64,000 bases of DNA from an uncultured Gammaproteobacteria bacterium (GTDB taxonomy: Bacteria; Patescibacteriota; Microgenomatia; Levybacterales; GWA1-39-11), in assembly GCA_964472415.1 (NCBI GenBank), contig CAYYLC010000003.1, forward strand, positions 96,075 through 160,074, written 5' to 3'. Position numbers and translations under genes: made by a program. This document shows positions 38,018 to 56,276 of the stretch, piece by piece (the first letter of the stretch is position 1; every line of letters begins with the position of its first letter). The notes beneath the pieces are model-generated. The model had not been told where the DNA came from. It saw only the letters and a list, made by a program, of their open reading frames with translations, and did no database searches.

Positions 38018-38061
38018 TCTTGAGATTTAGCTTAAAATTCTCTATACTACTCTAGTCTTTT

Positions 38062-39681: not shown

Positions 39682-39715
39682 ATACCCCCTTGATTGATCT
39701 TATTATATTTTTCCT

Positions 39716-42579: not shown

Positions 42580-42655
42580 TAATGATGTCTTCCTTGAAGC
42601 TGGGGTGCGTTTTTACTATAATTTACGGGTCCCACACTAAATATGGGTGCGTTTT

Positions 42656-42726: not shown

Positions 42727-44409
42727 CATGATTCTACTGATAGGCTGATAATCGATCAAATTGCTTGTTATTACGGCCTTTTCTGTAGGTTCTAACGCAA
42801 ATATAATGTCCTCGATTTCTCTCTTTGCTTTCTCTATAAGAAAATATGGCCTATCTCCTGAGATTTGGAGGCTTCGATCTAGAATTGTTAGGTTCGAACC
42901 AAGTTTTGACAAAATATAGGTTTTGGTTCTAACGTCACCTGTTTCAAACTGATATTTGGCACTGCAAGCGAAGTTAAATGTCTCTTTTGACTGGAAATAC
43001 CACTCCTCTTGTTTCTTGTCCACTGAGTCAATTTGCTTCATGACATCTTTTCTCTCTTTTAGTAGTCTTTCTTCCTCATCATCGTAGAACTTCTGCATTT
43101 CAGTACCATTCGTGACGTTTTCTCTTGAGATTCTAAGTCTCGTAAGCCGCGCAAGCGCTTTATCACAGTTTTCCATCTGTTTTACAAGGTTTTCTTTAAT
43201 ACTTCTAATGTCTGTTTCTTCTTTATCATTTAGTTCATTTAAGTGATCTATGCACCAATCGCGGAACTCTTCCGTTAATTCAAATTTGTTAAGCTCTGTT
43301 TTGATCTTATCTTCAAGATTTTTCAGTGTCACACTACCTTGAGAACAAGTCTTAGTAACTCTTTTTGTGCAGTGGTAGAACACATAATGCAGCAACTTTG
43401 GATTTTTCATTTCCTCAATTAAAGTGCCACATTTAGGACAAGCATTTGTCAGTTTTCCTTTATGGAACTTTTGCTTACAAGTTGAGCAGATTATTTGCAT
43501 CTTTTCCTCAGCAGTCACACTTCCGTCACATTCACCACATTTGAGAACATGCTTATATGCGAATTCATGTCGTGCCATACGTGGCTTGCCTTTGCGTCCT
43601 AAACGCACCTGTAGTGTGTCAAATTCATCTTCAGTGAGCATTGGCTTATGTGTTCCAAATACTTCTCCTTCAGATCGCACCATGAGGCCATAATAGTAAC
43701 TATCTGTGAGGATTCTGTACCATCCAGATTTTGCCATTGGCAAACCGCCTTTACTTCCTCTTGCTCTTGATCTAAATTTCCATTTGTTATTTAGAACATC
43801 TAATGCTTCCATTGGAGTATAAGTTCCATCAATAATCAATCTCATTGCATTTTGCAGTAATGGAAATCTTTCCTCATCCACGCCTATTTTCTTTTCCTTG
43901 GTGGCTTCATCATAGTAGTTGAAGTATCCTGGCTTGGCAGGGCCGATCCATTTTTTAAGGTTGTGGAATATGTAATGGTTACCACGCTTCACATTCTTAC
44001 TCAGATTCCTGGAGTATTGGTTTGCCATTCCAAAATGAATTTGCAGAATAAGGTGATCTGAATCCTGTGTGTATCTTTCACCGTCAGTACTTCGAATTTC
44101 TTGAAGCTTTCCATCTTGTAACAGCTGGAGAAGATGTCCACCTTCCATTGGATTGCGGCACAGTCTGTCTGGCTTCCAAGTAAGAATTGCATTTATCTTA
44201 CGAGCCTCAATGAGTTCAATCATTTTTGTGAACTCTGGCCTATTGTTTGGCTTATATGCAGATTTTGACTCTTGGAAGATATGAGTAACTGTCAAATTGT
44301 CTCTATCAACTGCTTTTTTACACTCCTCATTCTGCTCGTTAATAGACATCGCCTGTTTCTCTTTTGACTCTGATGACTTTCTTGAATATTGTGCGTATAC
44401 TAGTTTCAT
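42667..44409 (-). CDS. large serine recombinase (resolvase/invertase N-domain, recombinase domain, zinc ribbon)
   Basis: 580 aa; N-terminal catalytic region VYAQYSRKSSESKEKQ...IDRLCR; CGECDGS...CSTC and CPKCG zinc ribbon; coiled-coil C-terminus. The 3' end of the ORF runs into tRNA-Gln on the opposite strand. Confidence 0.8.
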   Translation of the reverse strand: MKLVYAQYSRKSSESKEKQAMSINEQNEECKKAVDRDNLTVTHIFQESKSAYKPNNRPEFTKMIELIEARKINAILTWKPDRLCRNPMEGGHLLQLLQDGKLQEIRSTDGERYTQDSDHLILQIHFGMANQYSRNLSKNVKRGNHYIFHNLKKWIGPAKPGYFNYYDEATKEKKIGVDEERFPLLQNAMRLIIDGTYTPMEALDVLNNKWKFRSRARGSKGGLPMAKSGWYRILTDSYYYGLMVRSEGEVFGTHKPMLTEDEFDTLQVRLGRKGKPRMARHEFAYKHVLKCGECDGSVTAEEKMQIICSTCKQKFHKGKLTNACPKCGTLIEEMKNPKLLHYVFYHCTKRVTKTCSQGSVTLKNLEDKIKTELNKFELTEEFRDWCIDHLNELNDKEETDIRSIKENLVKQMENCDKALARLTRLRISRENVTNGTEMQKFYDDEEERLLKERKDVMKQIDSVDKKQEEWYFQSKETFNFACSAKYQFETGDVRTKTYILSKLGSNLTILDRSLQISGDRPYFLIEKAKREIEDIIFALEPTEKAVITSNLIDYQPISRIMLPSLDSNQNKRIQSPLSYH

Positions 44410-44451: not shown

Positions 44452-44970
44452 CTAAAAGTCAGCCTTTTCTGTTCGTAATGGTTTATCTTTCCAATTCATT
44501 TGCTTTATAAGTTTCTTTCTCCATACTTCATATTTCGCTTGACTCATCTTTTCATTTCGTTTTATTCCATTTGTATTATTAGTAGGAAGTATATTTCCTG
44601 GATGGAGTGGAACTTTAGTTCCTAAATGAGAGGAATTTCCATTCCTAATGCTTGAACCACTTTTTGCTTTTGAAGGTAAATCTCTTGTACTCTTCAAATT
44701 CCTGTGAACTGTATATGTATTCACTCGATTCCATCCTTCTCTTTTTATTTCAATCAATCCTTCCTTTTTTAGTTGCTTTAATAGAATTCTAATGTTTCTA
44801 TCACCGCATCCTAAAATTGCAGCAAGTGTTGTTTGTCCAGGAAAGCATGACTCTTTTTGATAACAATGTTTGAGCAATACAATGTATAAGAATCTTGCTT
44901 GAACTGAGAGCTGAGACACATCTAATAGTTCGTTTGGAACCATAGTAAAGTTTTTGCGTTTCATATTCAT
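44452..44970 (-). CDS. winged-helix HTH protein (replication-initiator or transcriptional-regulator-like)
   Basis: 172 aa; FTMVPNELLD...LSVQARFLYIVLLKHCYQKESCFPGQTTLAAILGCGDRNIRILLKQLKKEGLIEI resembles phage/plasmid replication HTH domains. Confidence 0.5.
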   Translation of the reverse strand: MNMKRKNFTMVPNELLDVSQLSVQARFLYIVLLKHCYQKESCFPGQTTLAAILGCGDRNIRILLKQLKKEGLIEIKREGWNRVNTYTVHRNLKSTRDLPSKAKSGSSIRNGNSSHLGTKVPLHPGNILPTNNTNGIKRNEKMSQAKYEVWRKKLIKQMNWKDKPLRTEKADF

Positions 44971-45133
44971 TTTTTTGGAATTGGTTTATAGATCAACTTG
45001 AAAAATTCCAACAACTCAACACCAAGTTCATTGGCCTGTTCATCACTTAGCTGAATACCAAACTTTAGGAAGTAAATTACCTTGAATTCGTCGATTGCTT
45101 TTTTGCTCAGTCTCATCATGTCTACATTGTGTT

Positions 45134-45147
45134 AGAAATGATGGAAC
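45134..45147 (+). repeat. island motif copy (agaAATGATGGAAc), partial
   Basis: Matches the AATGATGGAA core of the motif; opens an 18-codon ORF MMELKELQ.... Confidence 0.35.
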
Positions 45148-45186
45148 TTAAAGAGCTACAGAAAGTTGGAGATTATTTGTACACCA

Positions 45187-45960
45187 CTATTTGAGAAGAT
45201 TTTTGTATCTGCGGACTGCTTGTTTTACCATTTCATACTCTGGAATTGCATATCTATTGCGGTTCTTCTCATATTCCAATCTATTGGCCGGTGATGTTGC
45301 GGATAAGGCAATATCTGTATATCCTATGCCTTCAATATTCATCCAATACCATTCACGATCTCGTCTGAAATTGCCAGCCTTCCTATTCTTCATTCGATAG
45401 TAGTAGTTAAGTAACTTCATATGAGATTCAAAGATGTCAGGTACATTCTTTTCAAAGACTTCCTGTACATCTTTAAGTGTTGTCATTGGAGTTATGACAA
45501 TTTTTACTTCAGGTAAATCTGTATATTCTGGAGGCTTGGGTGGATCAGTTGGTTCTACTTCAATCTTTGTGTGTTGATAGCTGAAATCTCCAACAACACC
45601 ACACGCTAAAGCAAACTGAATTATCTGAGTGAAATATCCAGGCTTTTTGAATCTTTTGCATAGCTCTACTGAATCTTCTTCAAACTTCCAGAATGGCCTA
45701 TTTGTACTTCTCCATTCAAAATCTTTTGTGTCTTCAAGTGTTTGAATATCTTCATCTAGCAGTTTTATTGTCCACTTCATGAATTCCGATTCTGACATTA
45801 ACGAATTTATTCCATGCTTCTTTCTGTATTCAGGAAGCAGTCTCAGAAACTCTGGCTTATCAACAAGTAGTGCAACATCCATGTATGCAATATCATTGGT
45901 ACATTTGATGTCTATCTTTAAGTCCAGCAAATCTTTATTGTCTGCAATTCTCATTCTCAT
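45187..45960 (-). CDS. hypothetical protein (257 aa), island-borne
   Basis: Long ORF upstream of the HTH gene; no recognisable motifs. Confidence 0.4.
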   Translation of the reverse strand: MRMRIADNKDLLDLKIDIKCTNDIAYMDVALLVDKPEFLRLLPEYRKKHGINSLMSESEFMKWTIKLLDEDIQTLEDTKDFEWRSTNRPFWKFEEDSVELCKRFKKPGYFTQIIQFALACGVVGDFSYQHTKIEVEPTDPPKPPEYTDLPEVKIVITPMTTLKDVQEVFEKNVPDIFESHMKLLNYYYRMKNRKAGNFRRDREWYWMNIEGIGYTDIALSATSPANRLEYEKNRNRYAIPEYEMVKQAVRRYKNLLK

Positions 45961-46210
45961 CTTTATTTTACTTGATGGGGGTGGCCATTTTACATGGAAG
46001 GATTATAACCAATTTGGTTAGATGCCTCTAAAATTTGCACCTATGCTGGTTAATATCTCAGCTTATGTAGAGTACCAAAGAATATTTATGCAGAGATATA
46101 AAAGCAGCATGTGAGCATTTGCTCTTACTCTTTTCATTTAAGGCTAGGAACTCTTTCAAGACTCTCTGTTATTAGAGGAAATCATTATTTCTAATAGGTG
46201 AATTATCTAC

Positions 46211-46234
46211 TTTTAATCAGGAATGATGGAATGT
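46211..46234 (+). repeat. island motif copy ttttaatcaggaatgatggaatgt
   Basis: Its ATGATGG provides the ATG of the 46223 Xis-like ORF. Confidence 0.5.
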
Positions 46235-46480
46235 TTAATCTCTGGTATTTTGATGTTCAATTTAGTACAATTAAGCTCAACTAATATGAACGCAGAGCTT
46301 GAAGAGCTTATATCTATCCAAGAGGCAGCAAGGATTTTGAATGTCAACGTTCAAACTCTGAGGAGATGGGACAGAACAGGTGTTCTCAAAGCAGTTCGTG
46401 TAGGTACTCGGAAAGGTGTTGGTGACAGACGATACCGCAAGAGTGATATTGAGGCTTATTTGTCACGAAATAAAAAATAA
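46223..46480 (+). CDS. excisionase/MerR-like HTH DNA-binding protein
   Basis: ISIQEAARILNVNVQTLRRWDRTGVLKAVRVGTRKGVGDRRYRKSDIEAYL is a helix-turn-helix of the Xis/MerR (HTH_17) type. Start could be the internal MNAELEE at 46289. Confidence 0.6.
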   Translation: MMECLISGILMFNLVQLSSTNMNAELEELISIQEAARILNVNVQTLRRWDRTGVLKAVRVGTRKGVGDRRYRKSDIEAYLSRNKK

Positions 46481-46504: not shown

Positions 46505-47413
46505 ATGGCATTATTTACAATTACTAATAATAAGGCATCGAAAATTGCACCGATTAAAGTTGGGCTGGAGAAAGATGTACAAAAGATATTCGAAGAGAAT
46601 CTAAATGAGATTTTGAATATAACTTTTCTTGCCACTGAATACTCTACAAGTTTTGGAGGGAGAATTGATTCTCTCGGAATTGATAATAATGGTGCACCAG
46701 TCATTATTGAATATAAACGTAACCATAATGACAATGTAATCAACCAAGGCCTTTCATATCTTCGATGGTTACTAGATCATAAAGCAGATTTTGATGTATT
46801 AGCACATAAAGTAAATCCAGAAATTGAGATTGACTGGAATTCTCCACGAGTCATTTGTGTGGCTGAGAGTTATAACAAATTTGATCTGGATACTGTTGAA
46901 CTTCTTCCAATTAACATTGAACTTTTGAGATATAAAATTTATCAAAACAATCTCCTACTAGTAGAGCCAGAAACACAACAAAAAGTACGTATCTCAACCT
47001 CAAAAATTTTCAATAAAGAAAAACAAGAGAAATCAATTGGAGAAAAAGTCACTTACAAATTAGAGGATCATCTATCTGGTATCAGTTCGAAAGCAAAGGA
47101 AATATTTGAAGAGGTAAATGAAAAAATTGTTGCACTTGATGAGTCAATTATTGTTGAGCCAAAAGCGAAATATATTGCCTATAAATTGACAACAAATTTT
47201 GTTGATATTGTTGTAAAGCAATACGGCCTCAAAATTTTTCTAAATGTTCCAAGTGGTGAACTGAATGATCCTCATGGTATGGCACGTGATCTCACAAAGC
47301 CAAAACCTATTGGACACTGGGGTAATGGAGACTACGAAGTAAAAATTGAAACACAAGAGGATATAGAAAAAGTATTTGATCTAATCAAGCAAAGTTATTC
47401 ATTCAATAAATAA
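46505..47413 (+). CDS. PD-(D/E)xK-type nuclease (restriction-endonuclease-like N-domain with DUF5655-like C-terminal region), candidate R subunit
   Basis: GRIDSLGIDNNGAPVIIEYKR is a D...(D/E)xK core. The stop at 47413 lies 3 bp from the methyltransferase start (translational coupling). Confidence 0.5.
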   Translation: MALFTITNNKASKIAPIKVGLEKDVQKIFEENLNEILNITFLATEYSTSFGGRIDSLGIDNNGAPVIIEYKRNHNDNVINQGLSYLRWLLDHKADFDVLAHKVNPEIEIDWNSPRVICVAESYNKFDLDTVELLPINIELLRYKIYQNNLLLVEPETQQKVRISTSKIFNKEKQEKSIGEKVTYKLEDHLSGISSKAKEIFEEVNEKIVALDESIIVEPKAKYIAYKLTTNFVDIVVKQYGLKIFLNVPSGELNDPHGMARDLTKPKPIGHWGNGDYEVKIETQEDIEKVFDLIKQSYSFNK

Positions 47414-47415
47414 AT

Positions 47416-48504
47416 ATGAGTTCAAAATCATTAAATTCAAATTTACACAAAGCAAGTAAAGCAAAAAAGGATGAGTTTTATACTCAACTTACAGATATTG
47501 AAAAAGAGCTTCGACACTATAAAGATCAATTCAAAGGCAAAGTTGTTTACTGCAACTGTGATGATCCTTTCGAAAGTAACTTCTTCAAATACTTCGCTTC
47601 CAATTTCAACGCACTAGGACTTAAAAAACTAATAACTACTAGTTTTTCAGGCTCACCAATCACTGGAAAGCAACTTTCTCTATTGGACATGGAAGGACTA
47701 AAACCTAAAGGAAAACAGCCATTCAAGATTGAGATTACTAATGTACCAGACAAGAATACTGATGGTGCTATCGACTTAACAGATGTGGAATGGCTATTAA
47801 AACAAGACACGAATGTATCCACTCCTCTTAAAGAAAGCGGAGACTTTAGAAGTGAAGAATGTATAGACTTACTCAAGCAATCAGATATTGTGGTAACTAA
47901 TCCACCATTCTCACTCTTTCGAGAATATATTGCTCAACTTATTGAGTATGAAAAAAAGTTTTTGATTATCGGAAATTTGAATGGAATAAGCTATCAAGAA
48001 ATATTTAAGTTAATCCAAGGCAATAGGCTTTGGCTAGGTTACAATAATGGACACAAAACTTACTTAGTTCCAGATTATTATGAGCAAAAGAATATATATG
48101 TCGGTGAGGATGGTAAAAAGTATGCCAAAATGGGAAATACAGGATGGTTTACAAATCTAGATATTAGCAAACGTCACGAAATGCTTACTCTTTATAAAAG
48201 ATATAATCCGCAAGACTTTCCACAGTACGACAACTATGACGCAATTGAAGTATCAAAAGTATTAGAAATTCCGTTAGATTATAATGGCATTATGGGTGTG
48301 CCAGTAACATTTCTTGACAAATATAATCCAGAACAATTTGAAATATTAGGGATTACTGATAGAAATCCTAAGAGCAAATATAGAACAAAAATGTATACCA
48401 AGGCTGACTCACCAATGTATAACGACTTAAACAGACGTGCAGCAATTAAATTTGATGGTAAATTAAAACCTACATATGCTCGATTGCTGATAAAGAAAAA
48501 ATGA
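47416..48504 (+). CDS. N6-adenine (or N4-cytosine) DNA methyltransferase
   Basis: DEFYTQL N-terminal motif, catalytic motif IV VVTNPPFS (NPPF), candidate AdoMet-binding region KVVYCNCDDPFES. Confidence 0.7.
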   Translation: MSSKSLNSNLHKASKAKKDEFYTQLTDIEKELRHYKDQFKGKVVYCNCDDPFESNFFKYFASNFNALGLKKLITTSFSGSPITGKQLSLLDMEGLKPKGKQPFKIEITNVPDKNTDGAIDLTDVEWLLKQDTNVSTPLKESGDFRSEECIDLLKQSDIVVTNPPFSLFREYIAQLIEYEKKFLIIGNLNGISYQEIFKLIQGNRLWLGYNNGHKTYLVPDYYEQKNIYVGEDGKKYAKMGNTGWFTNLDISKRHEMLTLYKRYNPQDFPQYDNYDAIEVSKVLEIPLDYNGIMGVPVTFLDKYNPEQFEILGITDRNPKSKYRTKMYTKADSPMYNDLNRRAAIKFDGKLKPTYARLLIKKK

Positions 48505-48505
48505 T

Positions 48506-49609
48506 ATGAAAATTGAATTACACAAAATAAAAGTTCGTGAAGTGGTTGAAGGATACAAAGACAATGCTGAAGAAGGTGTTGTAGGATATGGTGGCGAACT
48601 TGATATTCGCCCTAAGTATCAGCGTGAATTCGTTTACAAAGACGCTCAGCGTGATGCAGTGATAGATACTGTCAAGAATGGCTTTCCTCTTAATGTCATG
48701 TATTGGGTAGTGCGTGAAGATGGTGGATATGAAGTCCTTGATGGACAGCAACGCACAATCTCGCTTGCACAATATGTAAATGGAGACTTTTCCATAGACT
48801 TTAATGGTAGGCTGGCAATGTTTCATAACTTAACTCCAGAAGAACAAAACCAGATTTTAGATTATGAGTTGATGATCTACTTTTGTGAAGGTACAGACAA
48901 AGAACGCCTTGATTGGTTTAGGATCATTAACATTGCTGGTGAGAAATTAACAGATCAAGAATTGAGAAATGCAGTATATACAGGGCCATGGCTTTCTGAC
49001 GCAAAACTTAAATTCAGTAAATCAAATTGCGTAGCATATCTTCTTTCAAATGACGGAGGTGCGTTACTCTCTGGATCACCAATAAGACAGGAATATTTAG
49101 AAACAGTACTTTCGTGGATCAATAATGGTGCAATTGAGGATTATATGGCACGTCATCAACATGATGAAAATGCCGATGAGCTATGGAATTATTTTCAAGA
49201 AGTAATCGCTTGGGTGAGAAAAACATTCTCAAACTACAGAAGAGAGATGGCAAGCGTGAATTGGGGTGAACTATACAATCAATTCAAGGATCATGAACTA
49301 AATCCTGAAAAACTGGAAGCTGAAATAAAAGTACTCATGCAGGATGAAGATGTTACAAAAAAGAGCGGTATTTATCCTTACGTTTTGACTCGTCTTGAAA
49401 AATATCTATCTATTAGAGCTTTTACTGACAAAATGAGACGAGAGGCATATGAGAGGCAAAATGGCGTATGTCCATTCTGCAAAAATAAATTTGAAATTGA
49501 AGAAATGGAAGCAGATCATATTACTCCATGGCATGAAGGTGGAAAAACAACTGCTGACAACTGTCAAATGCTTTGCAAACAAGATAATAGAACAAAATCT
49601 GGTGTGTAA
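48506..49609 (+). CDS. DUF262 (ParB/GmrS-like NTPase) - HNH endonuclease fusion, GmrSD-like candidate type IV or modification-dependent nuclease
   Basis: N-terminal DUF262 with DGQQRT motif; C-terminal HNH CPFCKNKFEIEEMEADHITPWHEGGKTTADNCQMLCKQDN. Start 2 bp after the methyltransferase stop. Confidence 0.65.
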   Translation: MKIELHKIKVREVVEGYKDNAEEGVVGYGGELDIRPKYQREFVYKDAQRDAVIDTVKNGFPLNVMYWVVREDGGYEVLDGQQRTISLAQYVNGDFSIDFNGRLAMFHNLTPEEQNQILDYELMIYFCEGTDKERLDWFRIINIAGEKLTDQELRNAVYTGPWLSDAKLKFSKSNCVAYLLSNDGGALLSGSPIRQEYLETVLSWINNGAIEDYMARHQHDENADELWNYFQEVIAWVRKTFSNYRREMASVNWGELYNQFKDHELNPEKLEAEIKVLMQDEDVTKKSGIYPYVLTRLEKYLSIRAFTDKMRREAYERQNGVCPFCKNKFEIEEMEADHITPWHEGGKTTADNCQMLCKQDNRTKSGV

Positions 49610-49656
49610 GTTGTATTGAATTAAAAATATGCTAAATCTGCCTATTATTACGAATA

Positions 49657-51273
49657 ATGAAAATATCGAAAATTATTGTTCAGAACTATAGATCAATTGA
49701 AAGGGTTGAGGTTAATCCAAGCAAATTTTCCATCTTTATCGGACAAAACAATCACGGCAAAACAAATTTCTTTGAGGCAATTGAATGGTTCTACAATTCC
49801 AAGTCATCAAATGAAGAAGAATATTGTAGAAAAGATTCAGACAATAAAATTCAAGTTGAGATAACTTTTGATGATGTTCTAGAAACAGACATTGAAAAAC
49901 TTACTTCTGATACCAATAAAACTAAAATTAGAAATATTTTGAATGGCTCTACTTCATTCTCTGTAATCAAATCAAGTACAGATCATAAAAGAAAATACTT
50001 TGTTAATGGTGAAGATAAAGGTAATCCTCAAGGACTAGACACTGCCATCAATGAATTTTTACCTAAGCTCGAATATGTTAATACTTCAATAAGATTAAAT
50101 GACGTTTCAAAATACAAAGACAGAAATCCTATTGGAACAATGCTTTCTGGCGTTCTCACTGCCATTATTGAAACATCACAAGACTACATTGAATTTAAGC
50201 AAACCTTCACAAAGTTATTTGACAATGCAGACTCAGAAGTTAGAAAAGAGCTTGATAAGTTAGGCGGACAAGTTGAAGTATATCTTCAGAAACAATTTCC
50301 AGGTGATACTAAGGTAAAGTTTGGTGTTAATCCACCTCATTTTACTGACTTATTAAAAAGTTTTGATACATCAATAAATGATGGAATTGAAACAACTGCT
50401 GAGGCAAAAGGTGATGGTATGCAAAGAGCAATAATGCTTTCAATTATCCAAGCATTTGCTGACTATCGTAAGAAGCAAATTGGTGGTGGAACTTTTCTGT
50501 TTATGATTGATGAAGCGGAATTGCACCTTCATCCAACTGCACAACGTTCTCTAAAGAATGCCTTATTAGACATATGTCAAACAGATCAAGTACTGGTAAA
50601 TACTCACTCCTCTGTTTTGGTTGTTGATAACAATGAACTTCAGAAGATTTTCAAGGTTGAAAAAACTGATGGAGTAACAAATATAGATGAGGTTGATGAT
50701 CTTGAGAAGATAAACATTATCTTCGAATTACTTGGTGGAAGTCCTTCCGATCTATTATTGCCAAGGAACTTTCTAATAGTAGAAGGAAAATGTGAATACG
50801 AATTCATCAAAATCATTATTGAACGTTATTATCGTGACAAATTTGATGGAATTAAGGTTTTATTTGCTGGAGGTGACTTGGATGAGCAAGAATCATCATT
50901 GCTCGCAGTCCACAAACTCTTTAATCCATTAGCTGGATCAGACAATCCAATTTATAAGGAAAGAGCTATTGTTTTAATAGACAAGCAAAATGGAGATCAG
51001 CAACATAAATTTGAAGCTTTTAAGCAAGGTTATCCTTATTTATTCAGCAATAATCATGTTTTTGAATTAACTACTACAACTCTGGAAGAATATTATCCAG
51101 ATGCATATAAGAAGAATGCTGCTGAGATCGCTCAACTGCAAGCAGACAGAAAAAAAGTTGAATATGCTAAAGAAGTTGCGTCAAAGATTACACAAGAGGA
51201 ATTTGAAAATGATATGCAGATAATATTCCAAGCACTTACTAAGTGTAATGAATGCGCTTTTAATCCGAAATAA
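49657..51273 (+). CDS. OLD-family protein: ABC/AAA_15-type ATPase with C-terminal TOPRIM-like nuclease region
   Basis: IVQNYRSIE...FIGQNNHGKTNFFEAIEWF (GxNxxGKT Walker A of the OLD/AAA_15 type), Q-loop region, Walker B/D-loop FLFMIDEAELHLHP, then FLIVEGKCEYEFI...VLIDKQNGD consistent with the TOPRIM conserved Glu and DxD. Confidence 0.7.
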   Translation: MKISKIIVQNYRSIERVEVNPSKFSIFIGQNNHGKTNFFEAIEWFYNSKSSNEEEYCRKDSDNKIQVEITFDDVLETDIEKLTSDTNKTKIRNILNGSTSFSVIKSSTDHKRKYFVNGEDKGNPQGLDTAINEFLPKLEYVNTSIRLNDVSKYKDRNPIGTMLSGVLTAIIETSQDYIEFKQTFTKLFDNADSEVRKELDKLGGQVEVYLQKQFPGDTKVKFGVNPPHFTDLLKSFDTSINDGIETTAEAKGDGMQRAIMLSIIQAFADYRKKQIGGGTFLFMIDEAELHLHPTAQRSLKNALLDICQTDQVLVNTHSSVLVVDNNELQKIFKVEKTDGVTNIDEVDDLEKINIIFELLGGSPSDLLLPRNFLIVEGKCEYEFIKIIIERYYRDKFDGIKVLFAGGDLDEQESSLLAVHKLFNPLAGSDNPIYKERAIVLIDKQNGDQQHKFEAFKQGYPYLFSNNHVFELTTTTLEEYYPDAYKKNAAEIAQLQADRKKVEYAKEVASKITQEEFENDMQIIFQALTKCNECAFNPK

Positions 51274-51276
51274 ATT

Positions 51277-52032
51277 ATGTCTCAATACTACAATCCAAAT
51301 CGAAAAAGAAACCTGTACGATCCTCACTCACCTGAGTTATTCCGCTTGAGTCGAGGAAAGATTGATAACTTCATCAATTGTCCACGGTGTTTTTATTTGG
51401 ACAGGCGTCTTGGTGTTGGACAGCCGCCAGGTTATCCATTTTCGCTCAATTCTGCAGTTGATAAGCTCTTGAAGAAAGAATTTGATGTTCATAGAGTAAA
51501 TGGCTCAAAACATCCACTGTGCGATAAATATGGTGTTGATGCAGTTCCGCTATCACACGATAAGATTGATGAATGGCGTGACTCTTTAAGAGGTGGAATT
51601 ACAGTTCACATTGACAGCACGAATGTTGTCATTACTGGTGGCGTGGATGATATTTGGATTTCACCAGAAGGTGAATACATTATTGTTGACTACAAGGCCA
51701 CATCTAAAGATGGTGAAGTATCACTGGATGCTGACTGGCAAATTGGATATAAGCGGCAAATGGAAATATATCAATGGCTTTTTAGGAAAAATGGCTTCAA
51801 AGTGGCTGATACTGGATATTTTGTCTACTGTAATGGAAATACTGACAAAGAAGCATTTGATGGAATGCTTGAATTTGAGATCAAACTCATTCCATACACT
51901 GGTAACACAGATTGGGTAGAAAAGACGATCCTGGACGCAATCAGGTGCCTCCAGAGCGATGTTTTACCTGAGCCTGGACAGGATTGTGACTTTTGTAAAT
52001 ACAGACAAGCTGTGAAGGAATTTGAAGATTAA
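51277..52032 (+). CDS. Cas4/RecB-like PD-(D/E)xK nuclease with four Cys (CxxC at each end)
   Basis: NCPRCFYLD (N-terminal CxxC), GGVDDIW...EGEYIIVDYKAT (D...E...DxK), KRQMEIYQWL (QxxxY motif of the RecB nuclease family), C-terminal CDFCKY. Start 3 bp after the OLD-like gene stop. Confidence 0.65.
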   Translation: MSQYYNPNRKRNLYDPHSPELFRLSRGKIDNFINCPRCFYLDRRLGVGQPPGYPFSLNSAVDKLLKKEFDVHRVNGSKHPLCDKYGVDAVPLSHDKIDEWRDSLRGGITVHIDSTNVVITGGVDDIWISPEGEYIIVDYKATSKDGEVSLDADWQIGYKRQMEIYQWLFRKNGFKVADTGYFVYCNGNTDKEAFDGMLEFEIKLIPYTGNTDWVEKTILDAIRCLQSDVLPEPGQDCDFCKYRQAVKEFED

Positions 52033-52139
52033 ATAGGGCTGGGTCGTGGTGAAAACACCACCTCGGCTTGTTCCGCTGACACCTTAAATCAATTTGCTAC
52101 ATCACGCCTCGCTGGTGTTTTTACCACATTTCTTAATAG

Positions 52140-52166
52140 TTTTAATCATAATGATGGAATTCATCC
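52140..52166 (+). repeat. island motif copy ttttaatcataatgatggaattcatcc
   Basis: Lies between the Cas4-like gene and the small membrane peptide gene. Confidence 0.5.
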
Positions 52167-52207
52167 TGTCATTTGAGATACTATTGAATAAGTAAGGAGG
52201 TGAAAGT

Positions 52208-52396
52208 ATGAATTTTAAGAAATTTGACATGATAGATATTGGATTCACTAAGCTTTCGGTTATGTGTTTCACTTTATTTGCTGTTTCTGCATTTCCAGGA
52301 CTCGCTGAATGGATCACAAACACATCTTGGATGCTATTTCTAGTCGTGAGCCTAGTATTTGCCATCAAACCAGTTATGAAGGTATTCAAGAAGTAG
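52208..52396 (+). CDS. small membrane peptide (62 aa)
   Basis: Strong RBS taaggaggtgaaagt-ATG; two hydrophobic helices; immediately upstream of the CPBP protease gene. Confidence 0.5.
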   Translation: MNFKKFDMIDIGFTKLSVMCFTLFAVSAFPGLAEWITNTSWMLFLVVSLVFAIKPVMKVFKK

Positions 52397-52420
52397 TTTT
52401 AATCAGAAATGATGAAATTG
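52397..52420 (+). repeat. island motif copy ttttaatcagaaatgatgaaattg
   Basis: 33 bp upstream of the CPBP protease start. Confidence 0.5.
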
Positions 52421-52452
52421 AACTGGTTTTGATATACTTTCATTATTAACAA

Positions 52453-53334
52453 ATGAAATTATCTAAGTATCAGCTACCTATTTTCTTCTTCCTTGCTTTT
52501 GCCATCACTTGGACTGCGCAAATCACAGCATATTTATATGCATTTCCAAACGACATAAATCTTACCAATGAATCCAATTTCCTAAATTTTGTGAATATTG
52601 GCGGTTTGCCGCCTGGCTTTCTTCCATACTTGCTTCTTTTCTCCTTCTCTTTCGGGCCAACGGTTGCTGGAATCATTGTTACTTACTGGTTTTATGGCAA
52701 TAAAGGCATGCGAGGAATACTTGATCAACTATTCGCGATTAGATTGCCTGGTAAATGGTATTTATTGGCAATAACAATTCCAGTTGGACTTGTACTTGCA
52801 AGCCTTTTGCTAGGCTTTGTCTTAAGTGGCTTTCAGTCAATTCAGTATGAGTTTCTTGTTCCATTGTCTCTATTTATTCCATTCTTCCTGTATATGACTA
52901 TATTTACAGGACTTGCGGAGGAAGTTGGTTGGCGAGGATATGCGCTTCCACAGCTTCAAAAAAAATATACTGCTGAGAAAGCAAGCTGGATATTAGGTAT
53001 TGCATGGGGACTTTGGCATTTACCTGTAAATCTGATGGTGCCATTTCTGTCAGGCAATTTACAAATACCATATATTGTGATGATCCTACTCGCGTTAACT
53101 CTTGGTATTGCAGGTTGGACAATTGTCCTTACATGGTTTTATAACAACACAAAGAGTCTCTTTCTCATCATATTCATTCATGGATTTATGAATACACTTC
53201 AGTCATATCTCATATTGTCCTCTAACAATCAGATTGCACCTATGCTTTATGGCATACTGCCATGGATAGTAGCAACATATCTTTTGAAAAAGTACGGAGG
53301 TAAGACACTATTGGTTCCTTCGAATAAACAGTGA
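52453..53334 (+). CDS. CPBP-family intramembrane glutamic protease (CAAX protease / Abi domain)
   Basis: Multi-TM protein with EEVGWRGY (EExxxR), FxxxH (LWHL) and HGFMN motifs. Confidence 0.75.
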   Translation: MKLSKYQLPIFFFLAFAITWTAQITAYLYAFPNDINLTNESNFLNFVNIGGLPPGFLPYLLLFSFSFGPTVAGIIVTYWFYGNKGMRGILDQLFAIRLPGKWYLLAITIPVGLVLASLLLGFVLSGFQSIQYEFLVPLSLFIPFFLYMTIFTGLAEEVGWRGYALPQLQKKYTAEKASWILGIAWGLWHLPVNLMVPFLSGNLQIPYIVMILLALTLGIAGWTIVLTWFYNNTKSLFLIIFIHGFMNTLQSYLILSSNNQIAPMLYGILPWIVATYLLKKYGGKTLLVPSNKQ

Positions 53335-53346
53335 AATTCAATAACT

Positions 53347-53802
53347 ATGAATATAAAAAGCCTTTGGAGTAAAATAAACAGTCGATTACAGAAACAGTGG
53401 ATTGCGTGCAGACTGGTATCAGATAGGAAAAGTGTTCAATATGGCATTCGCTTTAGCTATCCGCTCTTCATAGCAATTGTATTAATAAGTATATTTCTGG
53501 AAAATCCTTTTATATTACTATTTGCTGCTCTGATTGCTTTTTTTGGCATGAAATTACCATTACATCCTTTTGACTATGTTTATAGCTATGGAATTGCGAA
53601 GCTAATAGGAGTTAATAAAATACCTGGTAGAGGATCAGAGTTGCAGGTTAACAGTATTGTGGCGCTTATATTTACCTTGTTTGTAAGTGTTTTGATACTT
53701 TTTAGAGTTCCAATCAATTATTCTATGCTTGCTATTATTTATCTTGTGAGCAATATCTTCATACTTGGAATGTTCTTGATAAAGAAGGATTCAAGGAAGT
53801 AA
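53347..53802 (+). CDS. hypothetical polytopic membrane protein (151 aa)
   Basis: Four hydrophobic segments; follows the CPBP gene by 12 bp. Confidence 0.4.
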   Translation: MNIKSLWSKINSRLQKQWIACRLVSDRKSVQYGIRFSYPLFIAIVLISIFLENPFILLFAALIAFFGMKLPLHPFDYVYSYGIAKLIGVNKIPGRGSELQVNSIVALIFTLFVSVLILFRVPINYSMLAIIYLVSNIFILGMFLIKKDSRK

Positions 53803-53816: not shown

Positions 53817-53912
53817 TTTAATCAGCAGTGATGGAATTCATCAAAAACTAGGCTGAAAAGCAGGTTGGAATGGTTGTTTTGTATTGATAAAATAGGTTCT
53901 AACAGCGTCTAC
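53817..53912 (+). repeat. ~95-bp direct repeat, left copy (ttttaatcagcagtgatggaattcatc ... aatggttgttttgtattgataaaataggttctaacagcgtct)
   Basis: Contains the island motif plus a second conserved block; a similar copy lies at 56008-56092 on the other side of the surface-protein gene. Confidence 0.6.
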
Positions 53913-53974
53913 TAGACACAGCTGAGTAAGCTTTCAAGCCTTGGTTACATTTGGCTAATCTAAAGAGGCATACT

Positions 53975-55924
53975 TTAACATCCTACCCTTAGTACTTGCC
54001 CTATGTTAAGAAGCGTAGAGCTTAGGTTATTTTTCTGCATTAAATCTGAGTATTTGGTACCTGATTCTAGGTTTTGGGAGGCGATAGTCCACAGATTGTC
54101 TCCTGGCTGCACCACATAATCCTGACATTCTTTTACAGACACTGTCGTTGCTTCCAGATCACCATTTCCACTGCCTGCATTAGTTACTCGTCTAGGAAAT
54201 ACAGACAAAATTCTCGATACAAAGTTTTTGTAATACGATGTTGCTTTTGATGACGAGTTACTCGTTGTTGCTGTCATTGTATTTCCCCACTCTCCAGGCA
54301 TGCAGCCGTTGCCACCTCTGACTACGAATGAATACTTAGAATTAGGAGATAAGGCATTAACAGTATACGAAAGCACTCCATTTGATACTCCTGTTTCAAA
54401 CTCTACTCCATACATATTAGTACTTTCTCCATTCCCATAAGCGATGAAGTACTTATGTGCATCTGATATAGGTGCAAAGTAAAGAGTGGCTTGTGTATTA
54501 TTCGTATCTATTTGGAAAAGATTAGGTGTGTTCAGTGGCCTAGTATCTGCGCACGTTGGAGCTGATGGTGAGGAAATGTCAGGTGACGAATTAGTGTTGT
54601 TTGATTGTAGTATAGGTTTGGGTGTAGGTGTACTGGTAGGTTCAGGTGTGGGAGTATTTGTCGGAGTTAGCGTTGGAGATGGAGTACCGGTTGGCGTTGG
54701 CGTCGGAGAATTTGTCGGTGTTGGGGTAGGTGTATTGGTTGGAGTTGGTGTGGGAGTAGTCTCAGGAGCGTCCTCTTCCAATGCAAATTTCAGATTGTTG
54801 TTGGTATTATCATAGTAGCTGATTCTGGCAAACCCGTCACTGCCCACCGCCAGAGAAGCGGGCAACCCTACATCTCCGTCTGCATCAACAATGCTGGTTT
54901 CTTTCTGTGTACAGTCATCATTAGCACATCTAATAAACTTGAGATCAGAGTTAGTATGATCTCGATAAGCTATCCTTGCATAGCCATCATCTCCTACTGC
55001 AATGGACGTATGTAGCCCTACAAATCCGTCTGAATCAAGGGTTGCAATATTACTTTCTGAACAATCAGCATTGGTGCATTGTGCAAATTTGAGATCGCCA
55101 TTTGTCCCATCATAGTAGCTGATTTTAGCAAAACCGTCACTGCCCATGGCAAGGGAAAGATGCGATCCTACGCCTCCTGAGTCAACAGTGGAGACATTTT
55201 TATTTGAACAATCGGCATTGGTGCATTGTAAAAATTTGAAATCATCAGTTATCTCATCGTAGTAGCTGATTCTGGCAAAACCGTCACTGTTCAAGGCAAG
55301 GGAGGAATAATATGGGTACGCACCTGAGTCAAGGGTTGCAACGTTACTTTCTGAACAATCGGCATTGGTGCACTGAGCAAACATCAATAGAGTATTCATG
55401 AATTCAAAATACAGAATCCGCGCAAAGCCGTCACTGCCCATGGCAATGGAAGGGTACCACTCCGTATTACGTTCAGGATCTATGGCGGTGACAGACTTTG
55501 ATGAACAATCGGCATTAGTACACGCGATTAAATACATCTCTTCAAATATAGATTTAGAATAGACGATCCGAGCAAATCCATCGTTACCCATGGCGAGGGA
55601 GTTATTTTGGACCTGTAATAACCCGCCCGTGTCAAACCACGATAATCCTGTGGCAACCGTGGTGATATTTTTTTCTGAACAATCGGCATTGGTGCACTGA
55701 ACAAATTTCAGCTCAGCAGTAACAAAGTCAGTATAGACGATCCGAGCAAATCCATCGTTACCCATGGCGAGGGAAATATCTTCTCCTATATCGCTAACCG
55801 AGTCAACAGCTTCAATTTTCCAGGCACTGGCGGCATTGACCGGCTGCGTAGGTAGAAACGAAGTACTCAAAAGTGAGATGAGAAAGAATGCTATGGTGAA
55901 AATGCTGAATAATTTTTTTTGCAT
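53975..55924 (-). CDS. secreted surface protein: signal peptide, seven ~47-aa CTNADCS repeats, Pro/Thr-rich linker, beta-rich domain, C-terminal LysM
   Basis: MQKKLFSIFTIAFFLISLLS signal. Seven repeats of consensus LAMGxDGFARIxYxDxxxxDLKFxQCTNADCSxxNxxTxDSxG. The 54590-54780 DNA is a PT-repeat (TPTPTPTNTPTPTPTNSPTPTPTG...). C-terminal YVVQPGDNLWTIASQ...LNIGQVLRV is LysM. Confidence 0.7.
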   Translation of the reverse strand: MQKKLFSIFTIAFFLISLLSTSFLPTQPVNAASAWKIEAVDSVSDIGEDISLAMGNDGFARIVYTDFVTAELKFVQCTNADCSEKNITTVATGLSWFDTGGLLQVQNNSLAMGNDGFARIVYSKSIFEEMYLIACTNADCSSKSVTAIDPERNTEWYPSIAMGSDGFARILYFEFMNTLLMFAQCTNADCSESNVATLDSGAYPYYSSLALNSDGFARISYYDEITDDFKFLQCTNADCSNKNVSTVDSGGVGSHLSLAMGSDGFAKISYYDGTNGDLKFAQCTNADCSESNIATLDSDGFVGLHTSIAVGDDGYARIAYRDHTNSDLKFIRCANDDCTQKETSIVDADGDVGLPASLAVGSDGFARISYYDNTNNNLKFALEEDAPETTPTPTPTNTPTPTPTNSPTPTPTGTPSPTLTPTNTPTPEPTSTPTPKPILQSNNTNSSPDISSPSAPTCADTRPLNTPNLFQIDTNNTQATLYFAPISDAHKYFIAYGNGESTNMYGVEFETGVSNGVLSYTVNALSPNSKYSFVVRGGNGCMPGEWGNTMTATTSNSSSKATSYYKNFVSRILSVFPRRVTNAGSGNGDLEATTVSVKECQDYVVQPGDNLWTIASQNLESGTKYSDLMQKNNLSSTLLNIGQVLRVGC

Positions 55925-56007
55925 AGCATAAAGGATGACTCATATTAAGTCTAACGATTATCACGTTTTTGAGTCAACCTTTTCAGGCAAATAAGCTAAT
56001 AAAAGGG

Positions 56008-56092
56008 ACATCATCAGGAACGATGGAAACCAAAAGAATACTCACAAAAATGGTTGTTTCATATTGATAAAATAGGTTCTAACACTGTCTGC
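56008..56092 (+). repeat. ~90-bp direct repeat, right copy (catcaggaacgatggaaacc ... aatggttgtttcatattgataaaataggttctaacactgtct)
   Basis: About 75-80 percent identical to 53817-53912; the block ATTGATAAAATAGGTTCTAACA is identical in both. Confidence 0.6.
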
Positions 56093-56276
56093 CAAGCACA
56101 ACAAAGCCCATCAACACCGCTGCTGTTTGTAATTTACGATACTGAAAAACTTCTGGAAATAGAATAGAATCATTCCATGACTACTTTTTCCTATTTATTA
56201 TAGGTAGCTTATTGTTACTCGTGTTTTTAATCTATCTATCATATTTCTAAATAGATAAATTAAGGAGGTGATACAT

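What the first reader, a model, noticed from the sequence alone, without database searches (positions are those of the whole stretch)
53817..56092. The surface-protein gene is bracketed by ~90-bp imperfect direct repeats
53817-53912 and 56008-56092 share the island motif plus a conserved block (AATGGTTGTTTyrTATTGATAAAATAGGTTCTAACAsyGTCT) and flank the 53975-55924 gene on both sides. This is a cassette-like arrangement. The cause could be insertion of the gene by site-specific recombination, a duplicated promoter or terminator region, or a target for inversion or excision by the island recombinase.
Basis: seen in the sequence. Interest (0 to 1): 0.55.

Follow-up and report, generated by a model that had tools for sequence, protein, structure and literature searches.

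The report
Repeated ends of tRNA-targeted mobile islands
The two repeats around the surface-protein gene are most likely the far ends of mobile islands that a large serine recombinase inserted beside a tRNA-Gln gene, each repeat being the cut-off last codons of a recombinase gene; this is a variant of a known arrangement, not a self-contained gene cassette.

Summary
The repeat is real: 53869-53920 and 56049-56100 are 85% identical over 52 nt, with a 36-nt core matching at 34/36 (none expected by chance).

It is not a local duplication. Read on the minus strand, both copies encode "...LCL(V/A)D(A/S)VRTYFIN(T/M)KQPF". This is the C-terminal tail of a family of large serine recombinases (LSRs) from CPR bacteria.

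The window carries one such LSR (42667-44409, minus strand). Its 3' end reads antisense into tRNA-Gln (42656-42727).

Homologues end in one of two ways after the same point: antisense tRNA ("DSNP...") or the VRTYFI tail. A homologue at 90% identity or more (L061) matches the window gene up to ...ATCATGCTG, then continues into the tail.

Joining the window LSR to copy A, or to copy B, at the shared GCTG gives an in-frame, in-register tail-type protein. The tail's GGTTCTAAC mimics the tRNA T-loop but lies 5 bp further from the junction. This is the published attP versus attB spacing rule for serine integrases.

I conclude that copy A is the attR-type end of an 11.2-kb defence island. Copy B is a second such end. 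The LysM gene lies in a recombinase-less segment of a tandem island array.

No excision was observed. The closest known case is the Dehalococcoides ssrA islands.

The parts
42656..42727 (+). tRNA-Gln(UUG). It is the integration target and supplies the B arm of attL. Its T-loop GGTTCGAAT starts 19 nt before the shared core.
   Evidence: ARAGORN and Rfam; sequence; spacing
42724..42727 (+). CAGC core of attL (tRNA positions 71-74 by my count). The inferred crossover lies in or next to it.
   Evidence: The window LSR and the contiguous-tail homologue L061 are about 95% identical (my count on alignment A3) up to GCTG (the reverse complement of CAGC) and unrelated after it. The same 4 nt end copy A.
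42667..44409 (-). Large serine recombinase gene (580 aa). Its last 19 codons (LPSLDSNQNKRIQSPLSYH) are the antisense of tRNA-Gln.
   Evidence: Pfam Resolvase E=4e-20; 1148 homologues, several of the 120 listed carrying Recombinase and Zn_ribbon_recom domains; translation
42728..42751 (+). Inferred P' arm of attP, which is also LSR codons ...YQPISRIM. It carries a degenerate T-loop-like motif, GGCTGATAA, at 42743-42751, 19 nt from the start of the core.
   Evidence: The same offset holds GGTTCAAAA in L050, GGTTCGAAG in L045 and GGCTCATAA in L051. This is inference.
44452..46480 (.). Integration module next to the LSR: HTH_36 protein (44452-44970, minus), a 257-aa protein (45187-45960, minus), a small ORF, and an HTH_17/MerR-like 64-aa protein (46286-46480, plus) that is a candidate excision factor or regulator.
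   Evidence: Pfam. The same gene set sits next to the LSR homologues in L051, L059 and L061.
46505..53802 (+). Cargo of the proximal island: PDC-S18 candidate, type II methyltransferase and restriction enzyme, OLD-family ATPase, Cas4-like nuclease, a 62-aa ORF, CAAX protease and a DUF4395 protein.
   Evidence: Pfam and PADLOC
53817..53922 (+). Repeat copy A, the attR-type end of the 11.2-kb island. It holds the island motif (53818-53837), the T-loop-like motif GGTTCTAAC (53895-53903), a 15-nt spacer and the core CAGC (53919-53922).
   Evidence: (tail profile E=2.8e-13)
53841..53921 (-). Split-off LSR tail in copy A: L-CLVDAVRTYFINTKQPFQPAFQPSF-stop. It is in frame and in register with the window LSR when the two are joined at GCTG.
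   Evidence: Register is compared with P0035, with P0365 (same 90% cluster) and with L059.
53975..55924 (-). Strain-specific secreted LysM repeat protein. It is the only gene in the 2.2-kb segment between the two island ends.
   Evidence: No close homologue exists; the next best hit is 47% identical over 56% of the query.
56008..56102 (+). Repeat copy B, a second attR-type end. It holds a degenerate island motif (about 56010-56029), GGTTCTAAC (56075-56083), a 15-nt spacer and the core CAAC (56099-56102).
   Evidence: (tail profile E=3.2e-10)
56042..56101 (-). Split-off LSR tail in copy B: L-CLADSVRTYFINMKQPFL-stop. It is also in frame and in register with the window LSR.

Best explanation
The window comes from a CPR bacterium related to Levybacteria. 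Downstream of its tRNA-Gln(UUG) lies a tandem array of integrated islands made by one family of large serine recombinases (LSRs).

In the free form of these elements, the attachment site attP lies inside the 3' end of the LSR gene. The P' arm is the codons ...(Y/F)(E/Q)P(I/V)S..(W/M)L. The P arm is the last 15-25 codons, ...(V/I)D.VRTYFI...stop.

Integration takes place at the extreme 3' end of a tRNA gene, in a 4-nt core at tRNA positions 71-74. It cuts the LSR gene in two. The body stays next to the tRNA and reads on into the antisense of the tRNA. The tail is carried to the far end of the island.

Repeat copy A (53817-53922) is that far end for the resident 11.2-kb defence island. Repeat copy B (56008-56102) is the same kind of end from a second, related element. 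The 2.2-kb segment between them, which holds only the LysM gene, has no recombinase of its own. It is either a decayed older island or a segment that moves only when the neighbouring LSR uses copy B.

The tail's GGTTCTAAC mimics the tRNA T-loop and would be the site bound by the recombinase zinc-ribbon domain.

Shown: homology of the repeats to LSR tails, the two alternative LSR C-termini, the breakpoint, the frame and register, the 5-bp spacing shift, and the variability of this locus among relatives.

Inferred: that recombination still occurs, the exact crossover position, and the history of the LysM segment.
For: 1. The repeat's 20-nt core occurs in 2 Levybacteria genomes and 45 metagenome contigs with unrelated flanks. 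In L029, L044 and L012 it is the last codons of ~525-aa LSR genes...VRTYFIKNS-stop.

2. Among the 120 best homologues of the window LSR, my regular-expression sort of the C-termini gave 52 that run into antisense tRNA (DSNP-type) and 16 that carry the VRT(Y/W)(F/I) tail. The two kinds diverge at the same position.

3. The window LSR's own 90% cluster contains a tail-type member, P0365. Its DNA (L061) is about 95% identical to the window (my count on alignment A3) up to ...AGAATCATGCTG, and then diverges into the tail. The window and L051 instead diverge into tRNA-Gln.

4. Both copies lie on the same strand as the LSR, to its 5' side, as an integrated element requires. Fusing the LSR to either copy at GCTG gives an open, in-register protein...SRIM-L-CLVDAVRTYFIN..., compared with ...SRIML-RMW-EEVRTYF in P0365 and ...STWLRRVDEVRTYFID in P0035.

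5. An unbiased shift scan over 11 pairs of tRNA and tail peaks sharply at +5 nt: 62 of 110 matches against roughly 16-43 at other shifts. All tails, including those still contiguous with an LSR gene, have the motif, then 15 nt, then the core. This matches the rule that the zinc-ribbon-domain motif lies 5 bp closer to the centre in attB than in attP (PMC3783163).

6. In 11 or more loci the order is tRNA(+), then 0.4-13 kb, then the tail(+). Several of these have no LSR left.

7. Relatives with 81-85% identical TreS keep TreS and tRNA-Gln but have entirely different genes after the tRNA. The LysM protein has no close homologue.

8. Copies A and B differ at 7 of 18 codons, and 4 of those 7 changes are synonymous.
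Against: - No excised circle, empty site or population variant was found. All contigs that carry the cupin or LysM genes show the same arrangement or break inside the LysM repeats.
- The exact predicted fusion proteins are not in the 15-billion-protein collection.
- In the window itself, the sequence shared between attL and copy A is only CAGC. Copy A alone does not stand out in the shift scan: 4 of 10 matches at +5.
- No LSR remnant lies to the right of copy A, although a simple tandem array would predict one.
- The core of copy B is CAAC, not CAGC.
- The original empty site could not be reconstructed.
- In the window LSR, the Recombinase and zinc-ribbon domains are detected only weakly (Zn_ribbon_recom E=0.052).
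- In L050 the tail is followed by a whole second tRNA-Ser, which the simple model does not explain.
- The synonymous/non-synonymous count is small. My rough binomial estimate, not a tool result, puts its probability at about 0.07.
Confidence: 0.75

Rival explanations
1. Both ends are still active. The resident LSR can pair attL with copy A to excise 11.2 kb, or with copy B to excise 13.4 kb. In the second case the LysM gene rides along as a cis-mobilised segment (accretion). This variant differs from the best explanation only in treating copy B as live rather than as a relic.
For: Copy B keeps the full architecture: the motif, a 15-nt spacer and a core. It also gives an in-frame, in-register fusion with the LSR. 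If the central dinucleotide is the first two bases of the core (CA), copy B matches attL. The tails in L019 and L022 also end in CAAC. LSR-less tandem islands that may be co-mobilised are described for the Dehalococcoides ssrA islands (PMC3146451).
Against: The core is CAAC rather than CAGC, which would block recombination if the centre is AG. The island motif and the distal part of the tail are more degraded in copy B. No junction evidence exists.
Confidence: 0.2
2. The repeats are inert pseudogene debris: the 3' ends of two dead LSR genes with no present or past role as att sites. The real island boundaries lie elsewhere.
For: They are homologous to LSR coding sequence. Tails without an LSR are common. 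No excision was observed.
Against: Random decay would not repeatedly leave exactly the last ~20 codons, ending at the same 4-nt core. Nor would it keep them in the orientation, frame and register of the neighbouring LSR, or downstream of a tRNA in 11 or more loci, or with the attP-type +5 spacing.
Confidence: 0.1
3. The repeats are a duplicated regulatory region. They form a promoter module (TTGGAA-17-TAAAAT with an upstream TG) copied in front of two transcription units, and are kept because they drive the flanking genes.
For: A sigma-70-like site with an extended -10 element lies at 53865-53893. Copy B lies 185 nt upstream of the cupin gene. In 34 of 46 tail instances a co-oriented ORF starts within 20-400 nt downstream.
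Against: Copy A points into the 3' end of the convergent LysM gene. Promoter-like sites are not enriched in the region (14 found, 10.5 expected). The same sequence is coding in intact LSR genes, and conservation extends 30 nt beyond any promoter element. Co-orientation with a downstream gene is expected anyway for genes that follow a tRNA. At most this is a secondary function.
Confidence: 0.05
4. The segment is a true cassette. Copies A and B recombine with each other, through the LSR or through homologous recombination, to delete, invert or capture the LysM gene.
For: Direct repeats flank a single accessory gene.
Against: Both copies are the same site type in direct orientation, and serine integrases pair only attP with attB, or attL with attR (PMC3783163). 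At 52 nt and 85% identity the repeat is poor substrate for homologous recombination (general knowledge, not tested here). No integron integrase and no second recombinase lies nearby. No contig lacks the segment.
Confidence: 0.03

Closest known systems
Dehalococcoides ssrA-specific genomic islands with the CcrB-like serine recombinase DsiB (McMurdie et al. 2011, PMC3146451)
   Same: - A serine-recombinase island sits at the 3' end of a small structured-RNA gene.
- The recombinase gene lies next to attL, and its 3' end always overlaps attL and the target gene in antisense. Those authors suggested it may be fully functional only on the circular form.
- Several islands lie in tandem downstream of one target, and some have no integration module.
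- A conserved short motif lies just inside the distal boundary.
- A conserved multi-gene integration module is present.
- The region is hypervariable between strains.
   Different: - The target here is tRNA genes (Gln, Ser, Asn and others), not tmRNA.
[quoted passage not shown]
- No 20-bp direct repeat of the target is produced; only about 4-8 nt are shared.
- The distal boundary is instead marked by a conserved coding tail with a T-loop mimic.
- No second small serine recombinase (DsiA/CcrA-like) was seen.
- The host is a CPR bacterium.
Phage serine integrases with solved att-site recognition (Listeria A118/LI, Bxb1, phiC31; Rutherford et al. 2013, PMC3783163)
   Same: - The enzyme is a large serine recombinase with an N-terminal resolvase domain.
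- The sites are short, with a small central core.
- The distal recognition motif lies 5 bp closer to the centre in attB than in attP.
- The pairing rules are attP with attB, and attL with attR.
   Different: - attP lies inside the integrase's own coding region, so integration changes the protein's C-terminus.
- The target is a tRNA.
- The sequence match to solved structures is very weak (TP901-1 catalytic domain only, E=0.0099).
Classical tRNA-targeted islands of tyrosine integrases (Islander, PMC4383910) and tycheposons (bioRxiv 10.1101/2020.12.28.424599)
   Same: - The island follows a tRNA gene and the tRNA remains intact.
- Tandem arrays form at one tRNA.
- Defence genes and accessory cargo are carried.
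   Different: - The enzyme class differs. [quoted passage not shown] Only 27 of 937 tycheposon-type elements carry a large serine recombinase.
- No displaced tRNA fragment of 15-50 nt marks the far end here.

Membership tests
Large serine recombinase (serine integrase) integrative element | N-terminal resolvase-type catalytic domain | tested here: met
   PF00239 E=4e-20 over residues 7-143. The N-terminus reads YSRKSSESKEKQ.
Large serine recombinase (serine integrase) integrative element | C-terminal Recombinase domain, zinc ribbon and coiled coil | tested here: inconclusive
   In the window protein, Zn_ribbon_recom scores E=0.052 and a double zinc ribbon E=0.0018. Several homologues at 38-53% identity carry precomputed PF07508 and PF13408. 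No structure was predicted.
Large serine recombinase (serine integrase) integrative element | Distal (zinc-ribbon-domain) motif 5 bp closer to the centre in attB than in attP | tested here: met
   GGTTCGAAT of the tRNA starts 19 nt before the shared core, and GGTTCTAAC of the tail starts 24 nt before it. The shift scan peaks at +5 with 62/110 matches. That this motif is the bound site is inferred, not shown.
Large serine recombinase (serine integrase) integrative element | Identical central dinucleotide in the partner sites | tested here: inconclusive
   attL and copy A share CAGC, and copy B has CAAC. Which two bases form the centre is unknown.
Large serine recombinase (serine integrase) integrative element | Demonstrated integration or excision | not testable with these tools
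   Only indirect evidence is available: the same LSR lineage occurs with both junction types.
Tandem t(m)RNA-targeted islands (accretion), Dehalococcoides ssrA-GI type | Recombinase next to the target gene, with its ORF overlapping attL and the target in antisense | tested here: met
   The LSR (42667-44409) overlaps tRNA-Gln (42656-42727) by 61 nt.
Tandem t(m)RNA-targeted islands (accretion), Dehalococcoides ssrA-GI type | Several successive island boundaries downstream of one target, some without a recombinase | tested here: met
   Copies A and B lie 11.2 and 13.4 kb from the tRNA. No LSR or LSR remnant lies between them.
Tandem t(m)RNA-targeted islands (accretion), Dehalococcoides ssrA-GI type | About 20-bp direct repeat of the target's 3' end at each boundary | tested here: not met
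   Only CAGC is shared with tRNA-Gln. The boundary is marked by the LSR tail instead.
Tandem t(m)RNA-targeted islands (accretion), Dehalococcoides ssrA-GI type | The locus is hypervariable among related strains | tested here: met
   L053, L055 and L057 keep TreS and tRNA-Gln but have unrelated genes after the tRNA.
   Both are P-arm (attR-type) sites in direct orientation, with different cores. No integron integrase or other recombinase lies in 44-60 kb.
Structured RNA or riboswitch repeat | Match to a known RNA family, or a fold shared by both copies | tested here: not met
   There is no Rfam match at E<=1 in either repeat. No common fold appears: z-scores are -1.6 and +1.0 on the + strand, and -2.2 and +0.6 on the - strand.

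The most novel reading that the evidence does not exclude
A large family of CPR serine recombinases (1148 homologues found) targets the 3' ends of many different tRNA genes. It would do so by using the universal T-loop sequence as the recognition motif of its zinc-ribbon domain. It carries attP inside its own 3' coding end.

Integration would then swap the enzyme's C-terminus from a conserved VRTYFI tail to an arbitrary antisense-tRNA peptide. Excision, or a tandem insertion, would restore the tail. The swap could be a built-in switch of recombinase activity or directionality.

This would contradict the textbook statement that tRNA genes are targeted only by tyrosine integrases. It would also explain how gene-poor CPR genomes build defence and surface-protein islands.
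Probability: 0.45. Interest if true: 0.65.

Novelty: new variant of a known kind. Interest (0 to 1): 0.45.

Why it matters
For this genome, the result places the LysM surface-protein gene and an 11-kb defence island (restriction-modification, OLD/Cas4-like, PDC-S18) in a recombinase-built variable region beside tRNA-Gln. This explains why relatives differ there.

More generally, it points to a large, undescribed group of tRNA-targeting serine integrases in CPR bacteria. Their att sites can be read directly from the sequence. That is useful for delimiting islands in CPR metagenome bins, which current tRNA-island finders miss because no tRNA fragment is duplicated.

The group is also a possible source of new integrases whose natural target, the tRNA T-arm and acceptor end, is present in every cell.

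The split-gene arrangement makes the idea raised for Dehalococcoides DsiB directly testable: that a serine integrase is complete only on the excised circle.

Tried and rejected
- **Promoter reading of the core.** An extended -10 element, TGATAAAAT, is present. It cannot explain conservation of the next 30 nt, or the coding homology.
- **tRNA fragment after the repeats.** None is present. ARAGORN finds no tRNA there, and only CAGC is shared with tRNA-Gln.
- **Crossover at the TAGGTTCTAAC also present in the LSR body (42786-42796).** The resulting fusion would be out of frame with the family tail. The breakpoint seen against L061 lies elsewhere.
- **LSR remnant to the right of copy A or B.** Local alignment scored no better than shuffled sequence.
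- **Tail profile (nhmmer) in the relatives L051-L058.** No tails were found, so no empty-site or boundary comparison was possible.
- **Empty site through TreS relatives.** The flanks are too divergent.
- **Exact look-up of the predicted excised-form proteins.** They are absent from the collection.
- **Population variants through contigs carrying the cupin, LysM or TreS genes.** None was found; contigs break inside the LysM repeats or inside the LSR.
- **Circularity of the tail-type LSR contigs L059 and L060.** Neither has a terminal overlap.
- **Rfam and RNA folding.** Nothing was found.
- **MITE or IS reading.** No terminal inverted repeats and no transposase were found.
- **First spacing test.** Its search windows were offset by 5 nt, which biased it. 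I repeated it as an unbiased shift scan.
Full report
**Observation**

The repeat is real. The gapless match is 53869-53920 versus 56049-56100 on the + strand: 52 nt at 85% identity, 2180 nt apart.

Upstream, both copies also carry a version of the 'island motif' TTAATCAGNAATGATGGAAT. This motif has three good + strand copies inside the island, at 46213, 52399 and 53818, against 0.1 expected. In copy B it is weak (4 mismatches by my count) and sits 12 nt closer to the block.

The bracketed ORF 53975-55924 (minus strand) encodes a 649-aa secreted protein. It has eight ~49-aa repeats, a Pro/Thr linker, a weak FN3 match and a C-terminal LysM domain.

**What the repeat is homologous to**

The 23-nt core hits two Candidatus Levybacteria genomes. 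The 20-nt core TTGATAAAATAGGTTCTAAC hits 45 metagenome contigs whose flanks are otherwise unrelated.

An all-against-all comparison of ORFs around these hits showed what the core is in L029, L044 and L012. There its reverse complement is the end of a ~525-aa large serine recombinase (LSR) gene...VRTYFIKNS-stop.

Read on the minus strand, window copy A encodes ...LCLVDAVRTYFINTKQPFQPAFQPSF-stop. Copy B encodes ...LCLADSVRTYFINMKQPFL-stop. Of the 18 codons from LCL to KQPF(F), 11 are identical, 4 differ synonymously and 3 non-synonymously. This is suggestive, though weak, evidence that the two copies diverged as coding sequence rather than arising from a local DNA duplication.

**The resident recombinase**

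ORF 42667-44409 (minus strand, 580 aa) has a resolvase catalytic domain (E=4e-20). It has 1148 homologues at E<=1e-20. The source names among the 120 listed are all CPR/Patescibacteria lineages, and several carry Recombinase and Zn_ribbon_recom domains.

Its last 19 codons are the antisense of tRNA-Gln(UUG), 42656-42727.

Next to it lies a module of an HTH_36 protein, a 257-aa protein, a small ORF and an HTH_17/MerR-like protein. The same module recurs beside homologues in L051, L059 and L061.

The cargo up to 53802 consists of defence genes. These are a PDC-S18 candidate, a type II methylase and restriction enzyme, an OLD-family ATPase and a Cas4-like nuclease. A CAAX protease and a DUF4395 protein follow.

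**Two alternative C-termini**

The C-termini of the 120 best homologues share ...(F/L)EP(I/V)(S/C/R)..(W/M)(L/R).. and then split into two kinds.
- 52 continue as (R/L)DSNP..., which is the antisense of a tRNA T-arm. In these, W = TGG is the antisense of CCA.
- 16 continue as (V/I/L)(D/E).(V/I)RT(Y/W)(F/I)..., the tail. The counts come from my regular-expression sort of the C-termini.

The window LSR's own 90%-identity cluster contains both kinds:
- ...SRIML-PS-LDSNQ (window)
- ...SRIML-RC-KDSNL (P0362)
- ...SRVML-GV-LDSNQ (P0363)
- ...SRIML-RMW-EEVRTYFNLFNF-stop (P0365)

At the DNA level, L061 (which encodes P0365) is about 95% identical to the window (my count on alignment A3) up to ...AGAATCATGCTG. 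After that it is unrelated. The window and L051 go into tRNA-Gln, while L061 goes into the tail. This fixes the breakpoint at GCTG, which is CAGC on the + strand: 42724-42727, tRNA positions 71-74 by my count.

**Fit of the two repeats to the resident LSR**

Both copies lie on the LSR's strand, on its 5' side. This is where the cut-off 3' end of the gene must be in an integrated element. Copy A ends in CAGC (53919-53922) and copy B in CAAC (56099-56102).

Joining the LSR to either copy at that point gives an open frame with the family register:
- ...YQPISRIM-L-CLVDAVRTYFINTKQPF... (587 aa) with copy A
- ...SRIM-L-CLADSVRTYFINMKQPFL (580 aa) with copy B

Compare ...STW-L-RRVDEVRTYFIDNN in P0035 and the four-way alignment.

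**Site grammar**

In every tail, whether split or contiguous with an LSR gene, GGTTC(T/G)AAC is followed by 15 nt and then the core: CAGC, CCGC or GAGC. In a tRNA, the T-loop GGTTCGAAT is followed by 10 nt and then the same core.

I ran an unbiased shift scan anchored on the GGTTC motif. It compared the last 10 nt around the tRNA end with the tail in 11 tRNA/tail pairs. It peaks at +5 with 62 of 110 matches, against roughly 16-43 at the other shifts. An earlier version used biased search windows.

A recognition motif that lies 5 bp closer to the centre in attB than in attP is what Rutherford et al. showed for the zinc-ribbon-domain motif of serine integrases (PMC3783163).

The P' side, which is LSR codons (Y/F)(E/Q)P, carries a GGTTC-like motif 19 nt after the start of the core in L050, L045, L051 and the window. 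The reconstructed attP is therefore roughly symmetric.

I could not fix the central dinucleotide. For window copy A alone, the shared sequence is only 4 nt.

**Distribution**

In 11 or more loci the order is tRNA(+), then 0.4-13 kb, then the tail(+). In several (L013, L015, L021, L024) the interval is too short (about 0.4-0.9 kb) to hold a ~1.7-kb LSR gene. Tails that outlive their recombinase are therefore common.

In L061, a tail followed at once by an LSR body lies about 300 nt from a tRNA. This is what an internal junction of a tandem array should look like.

**The locus is a hot spot**

Left of the tRNA is trehalose synthase (TreS). Right of copy B are a cupin, OmdA, DUF488, a hexokinase-like protein and two amylases.

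Three relatives with 81-85% identical TreS keep TreS and tRNA-Gln. After the tRNA they have three unrelated gene sets, with no LSR and no tail. Two of them carry displaced tRNA-Gln 3' fragments that start in the T-loop. These are scars of another type of element.

The LysM protein has no close homologue; the next best hit is 47% identical over 56% of the query.

**Interpretation**

Copy A is the attR-type end of the 11.2-kb defence island. Copy B is a second end of the same family. The LysM gene is the only content of a recombinase-less segment between them.

That segment is either the remains of an older island or a passenger that moves only if the LSR uses copy B. Whether copy B is still usable depends on which bases of the core form the centre: CA would match attL, AG would not.

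The two copies are not partners of each other. A 2.2-kb cassette excision or inversion is therefore not expected.

**What is missing**

- There is no direct evidence of excision. Every assembly that carries these genes shows the same order or breaks in repeats.
- The predicted fusion proteins are not on record.
- No empty site could be reconstructed.
- No LSR remnant lies next to copy A.
- L050, from a complete Levybacteria chromosome, has its tail directly 5' of a second complete tRNA-Ser(TGA). The simple model does not explain this.

**Comparison with known systems**

The closest described case is the Dehalococcoides ssrA islands (PMC3146451). Those are tandem serine-recombinase islands at the tmRNA gene. 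The recombinase dsiB always overlaps attL and ssrA at its 3' end, some islands in the array lack a recombinase, and the authors raised the idea that the recombinase is complete only on the circle.

The differences here are as follows:
- the targets are tRNA genes;
- the crossover lies at the extreme 3' end, not in the T-loop;
- no 20-bp target repeat is made;
- a conserved coding tail with a T-loop mimic marks the far end.

Islander states that serine-family integrases are not known to target tRNA genes (PMC4383910). In Prochlorococcus tycheposon-type elements, only 27 of 937 carry a large serine recombinase. My literature searches found no description of this CPR family.

**Verdict**

The feature is a new variant of a known kind: tandem site-specific islands. 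The recombinase family behind it is moderately interesting in its own right.

Noticed in passing
window 46213-46232, 52399-52418, 53818-53837 (weaker at 52139-52165 and about 56010-56029): The 'island motif' TTAATCAGNAATGATGGAAT occurs on the + strand only (3 copies against 0.1 expected). It lies 35-75 nt upstream of the island's + strand genes (HTH_17, a 62-aa ORF, the CAAX protease), so it is probably a shared promoter or operator. Its last copy overlaps the stop codon of the predicted excised-form LSR.
   Followed up: partly
window 42786-42796; also L050, L051, L061: AGGTTCTAAC, the T-loop-like motif of the tail, also lies inside the LSR body (codons A-L-E-P, read in a different frame from the tail). 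It is about 62 nt from the core, in direct orientation, and is conserved in homologues. It could be a possible third binding site or a by-product of the conserved xLEP protein motif.
   Followed up: partly
window 46505-52032: The 11.2-kb island is a defence island. It carries a PDC-S18 candidate, a type II methyltransferase with a GmrSD/HNH restriction enzyme, and an OLD-family ATPase followed by a Cas4-like PD-(D/E)XK nuclease.
   Followed up: partly
L050 (CP066685.1, Levybacteria) 6119-6260 and 11708-11797: A 5.5-kb LSR element is flanked by two identical complete tRNA-Ser(TGA) genes. The identity runs 97 nt, including 7 nt upstream. The tail sits immediately 5' of the distal copy. Either the element captured a tRNA or the target was a tandem tRNA pair.
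   Followed up: partly
L053 about 9760-9866 and L057 about 7750-7851 (minus strand; relatives of the window organism): About 85-100 nt after tRNA-Gln lies a displaced copy of the tRNA-Gln 3' end that starts in the T-loop. These are scars of a different element type (T-loop crossover, as with tyrosine integrases or the Dehalococcoides type) at the same hot spot.
   Followed up: no
46 tail instances in L002-L048 and the window: In 34 of 46 instances a co-oriented ORF starts 20-400 nt downstream of the tail, often 20-75 nt after its end. The tail contains TGnTAAAAT, an extended -10 element. An outward-reading promoter at island ends is possible, but this was not separated from the general co-orientation of genes that follow tRNAs.
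   Followed up: partly
L029 296-1874 and 8017-9595; also L030: Two identical tail-type LSR genes lie in inverted orientation, both pointing inward, around a shared ~6-kb segment in organisms with GC-rich flanks. This could be an invertible segment, a composite element or an assembly artefact.
   Followed up: no
window 31246-42727: Eight tRNA genes are scattered over 11.5 kb (Val, Leu x3, Phe, Gly, Val, Gln). The order is conserved in relatives (L052, L053). A GIY-YIG/T5orf172-type gene lies among the tRNA genes in L052, and GIY-YIG genes lie in the regions fetched from L053, L055, L057 and L058.
   Followed up: no
window 53975-55924: The LysM protein has eight ~49-aa repeats (G.DGFARI.Y...LKF.QCTNADCS) of unknown fold. 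These are shared at 40-50% identity with ~950-1000-aa proteins of many Parcubacteria lineages and with Nitrospiria proteins of 670-790 aa. Assemblies from other samples break inside these repeats.
   Followed up: partly
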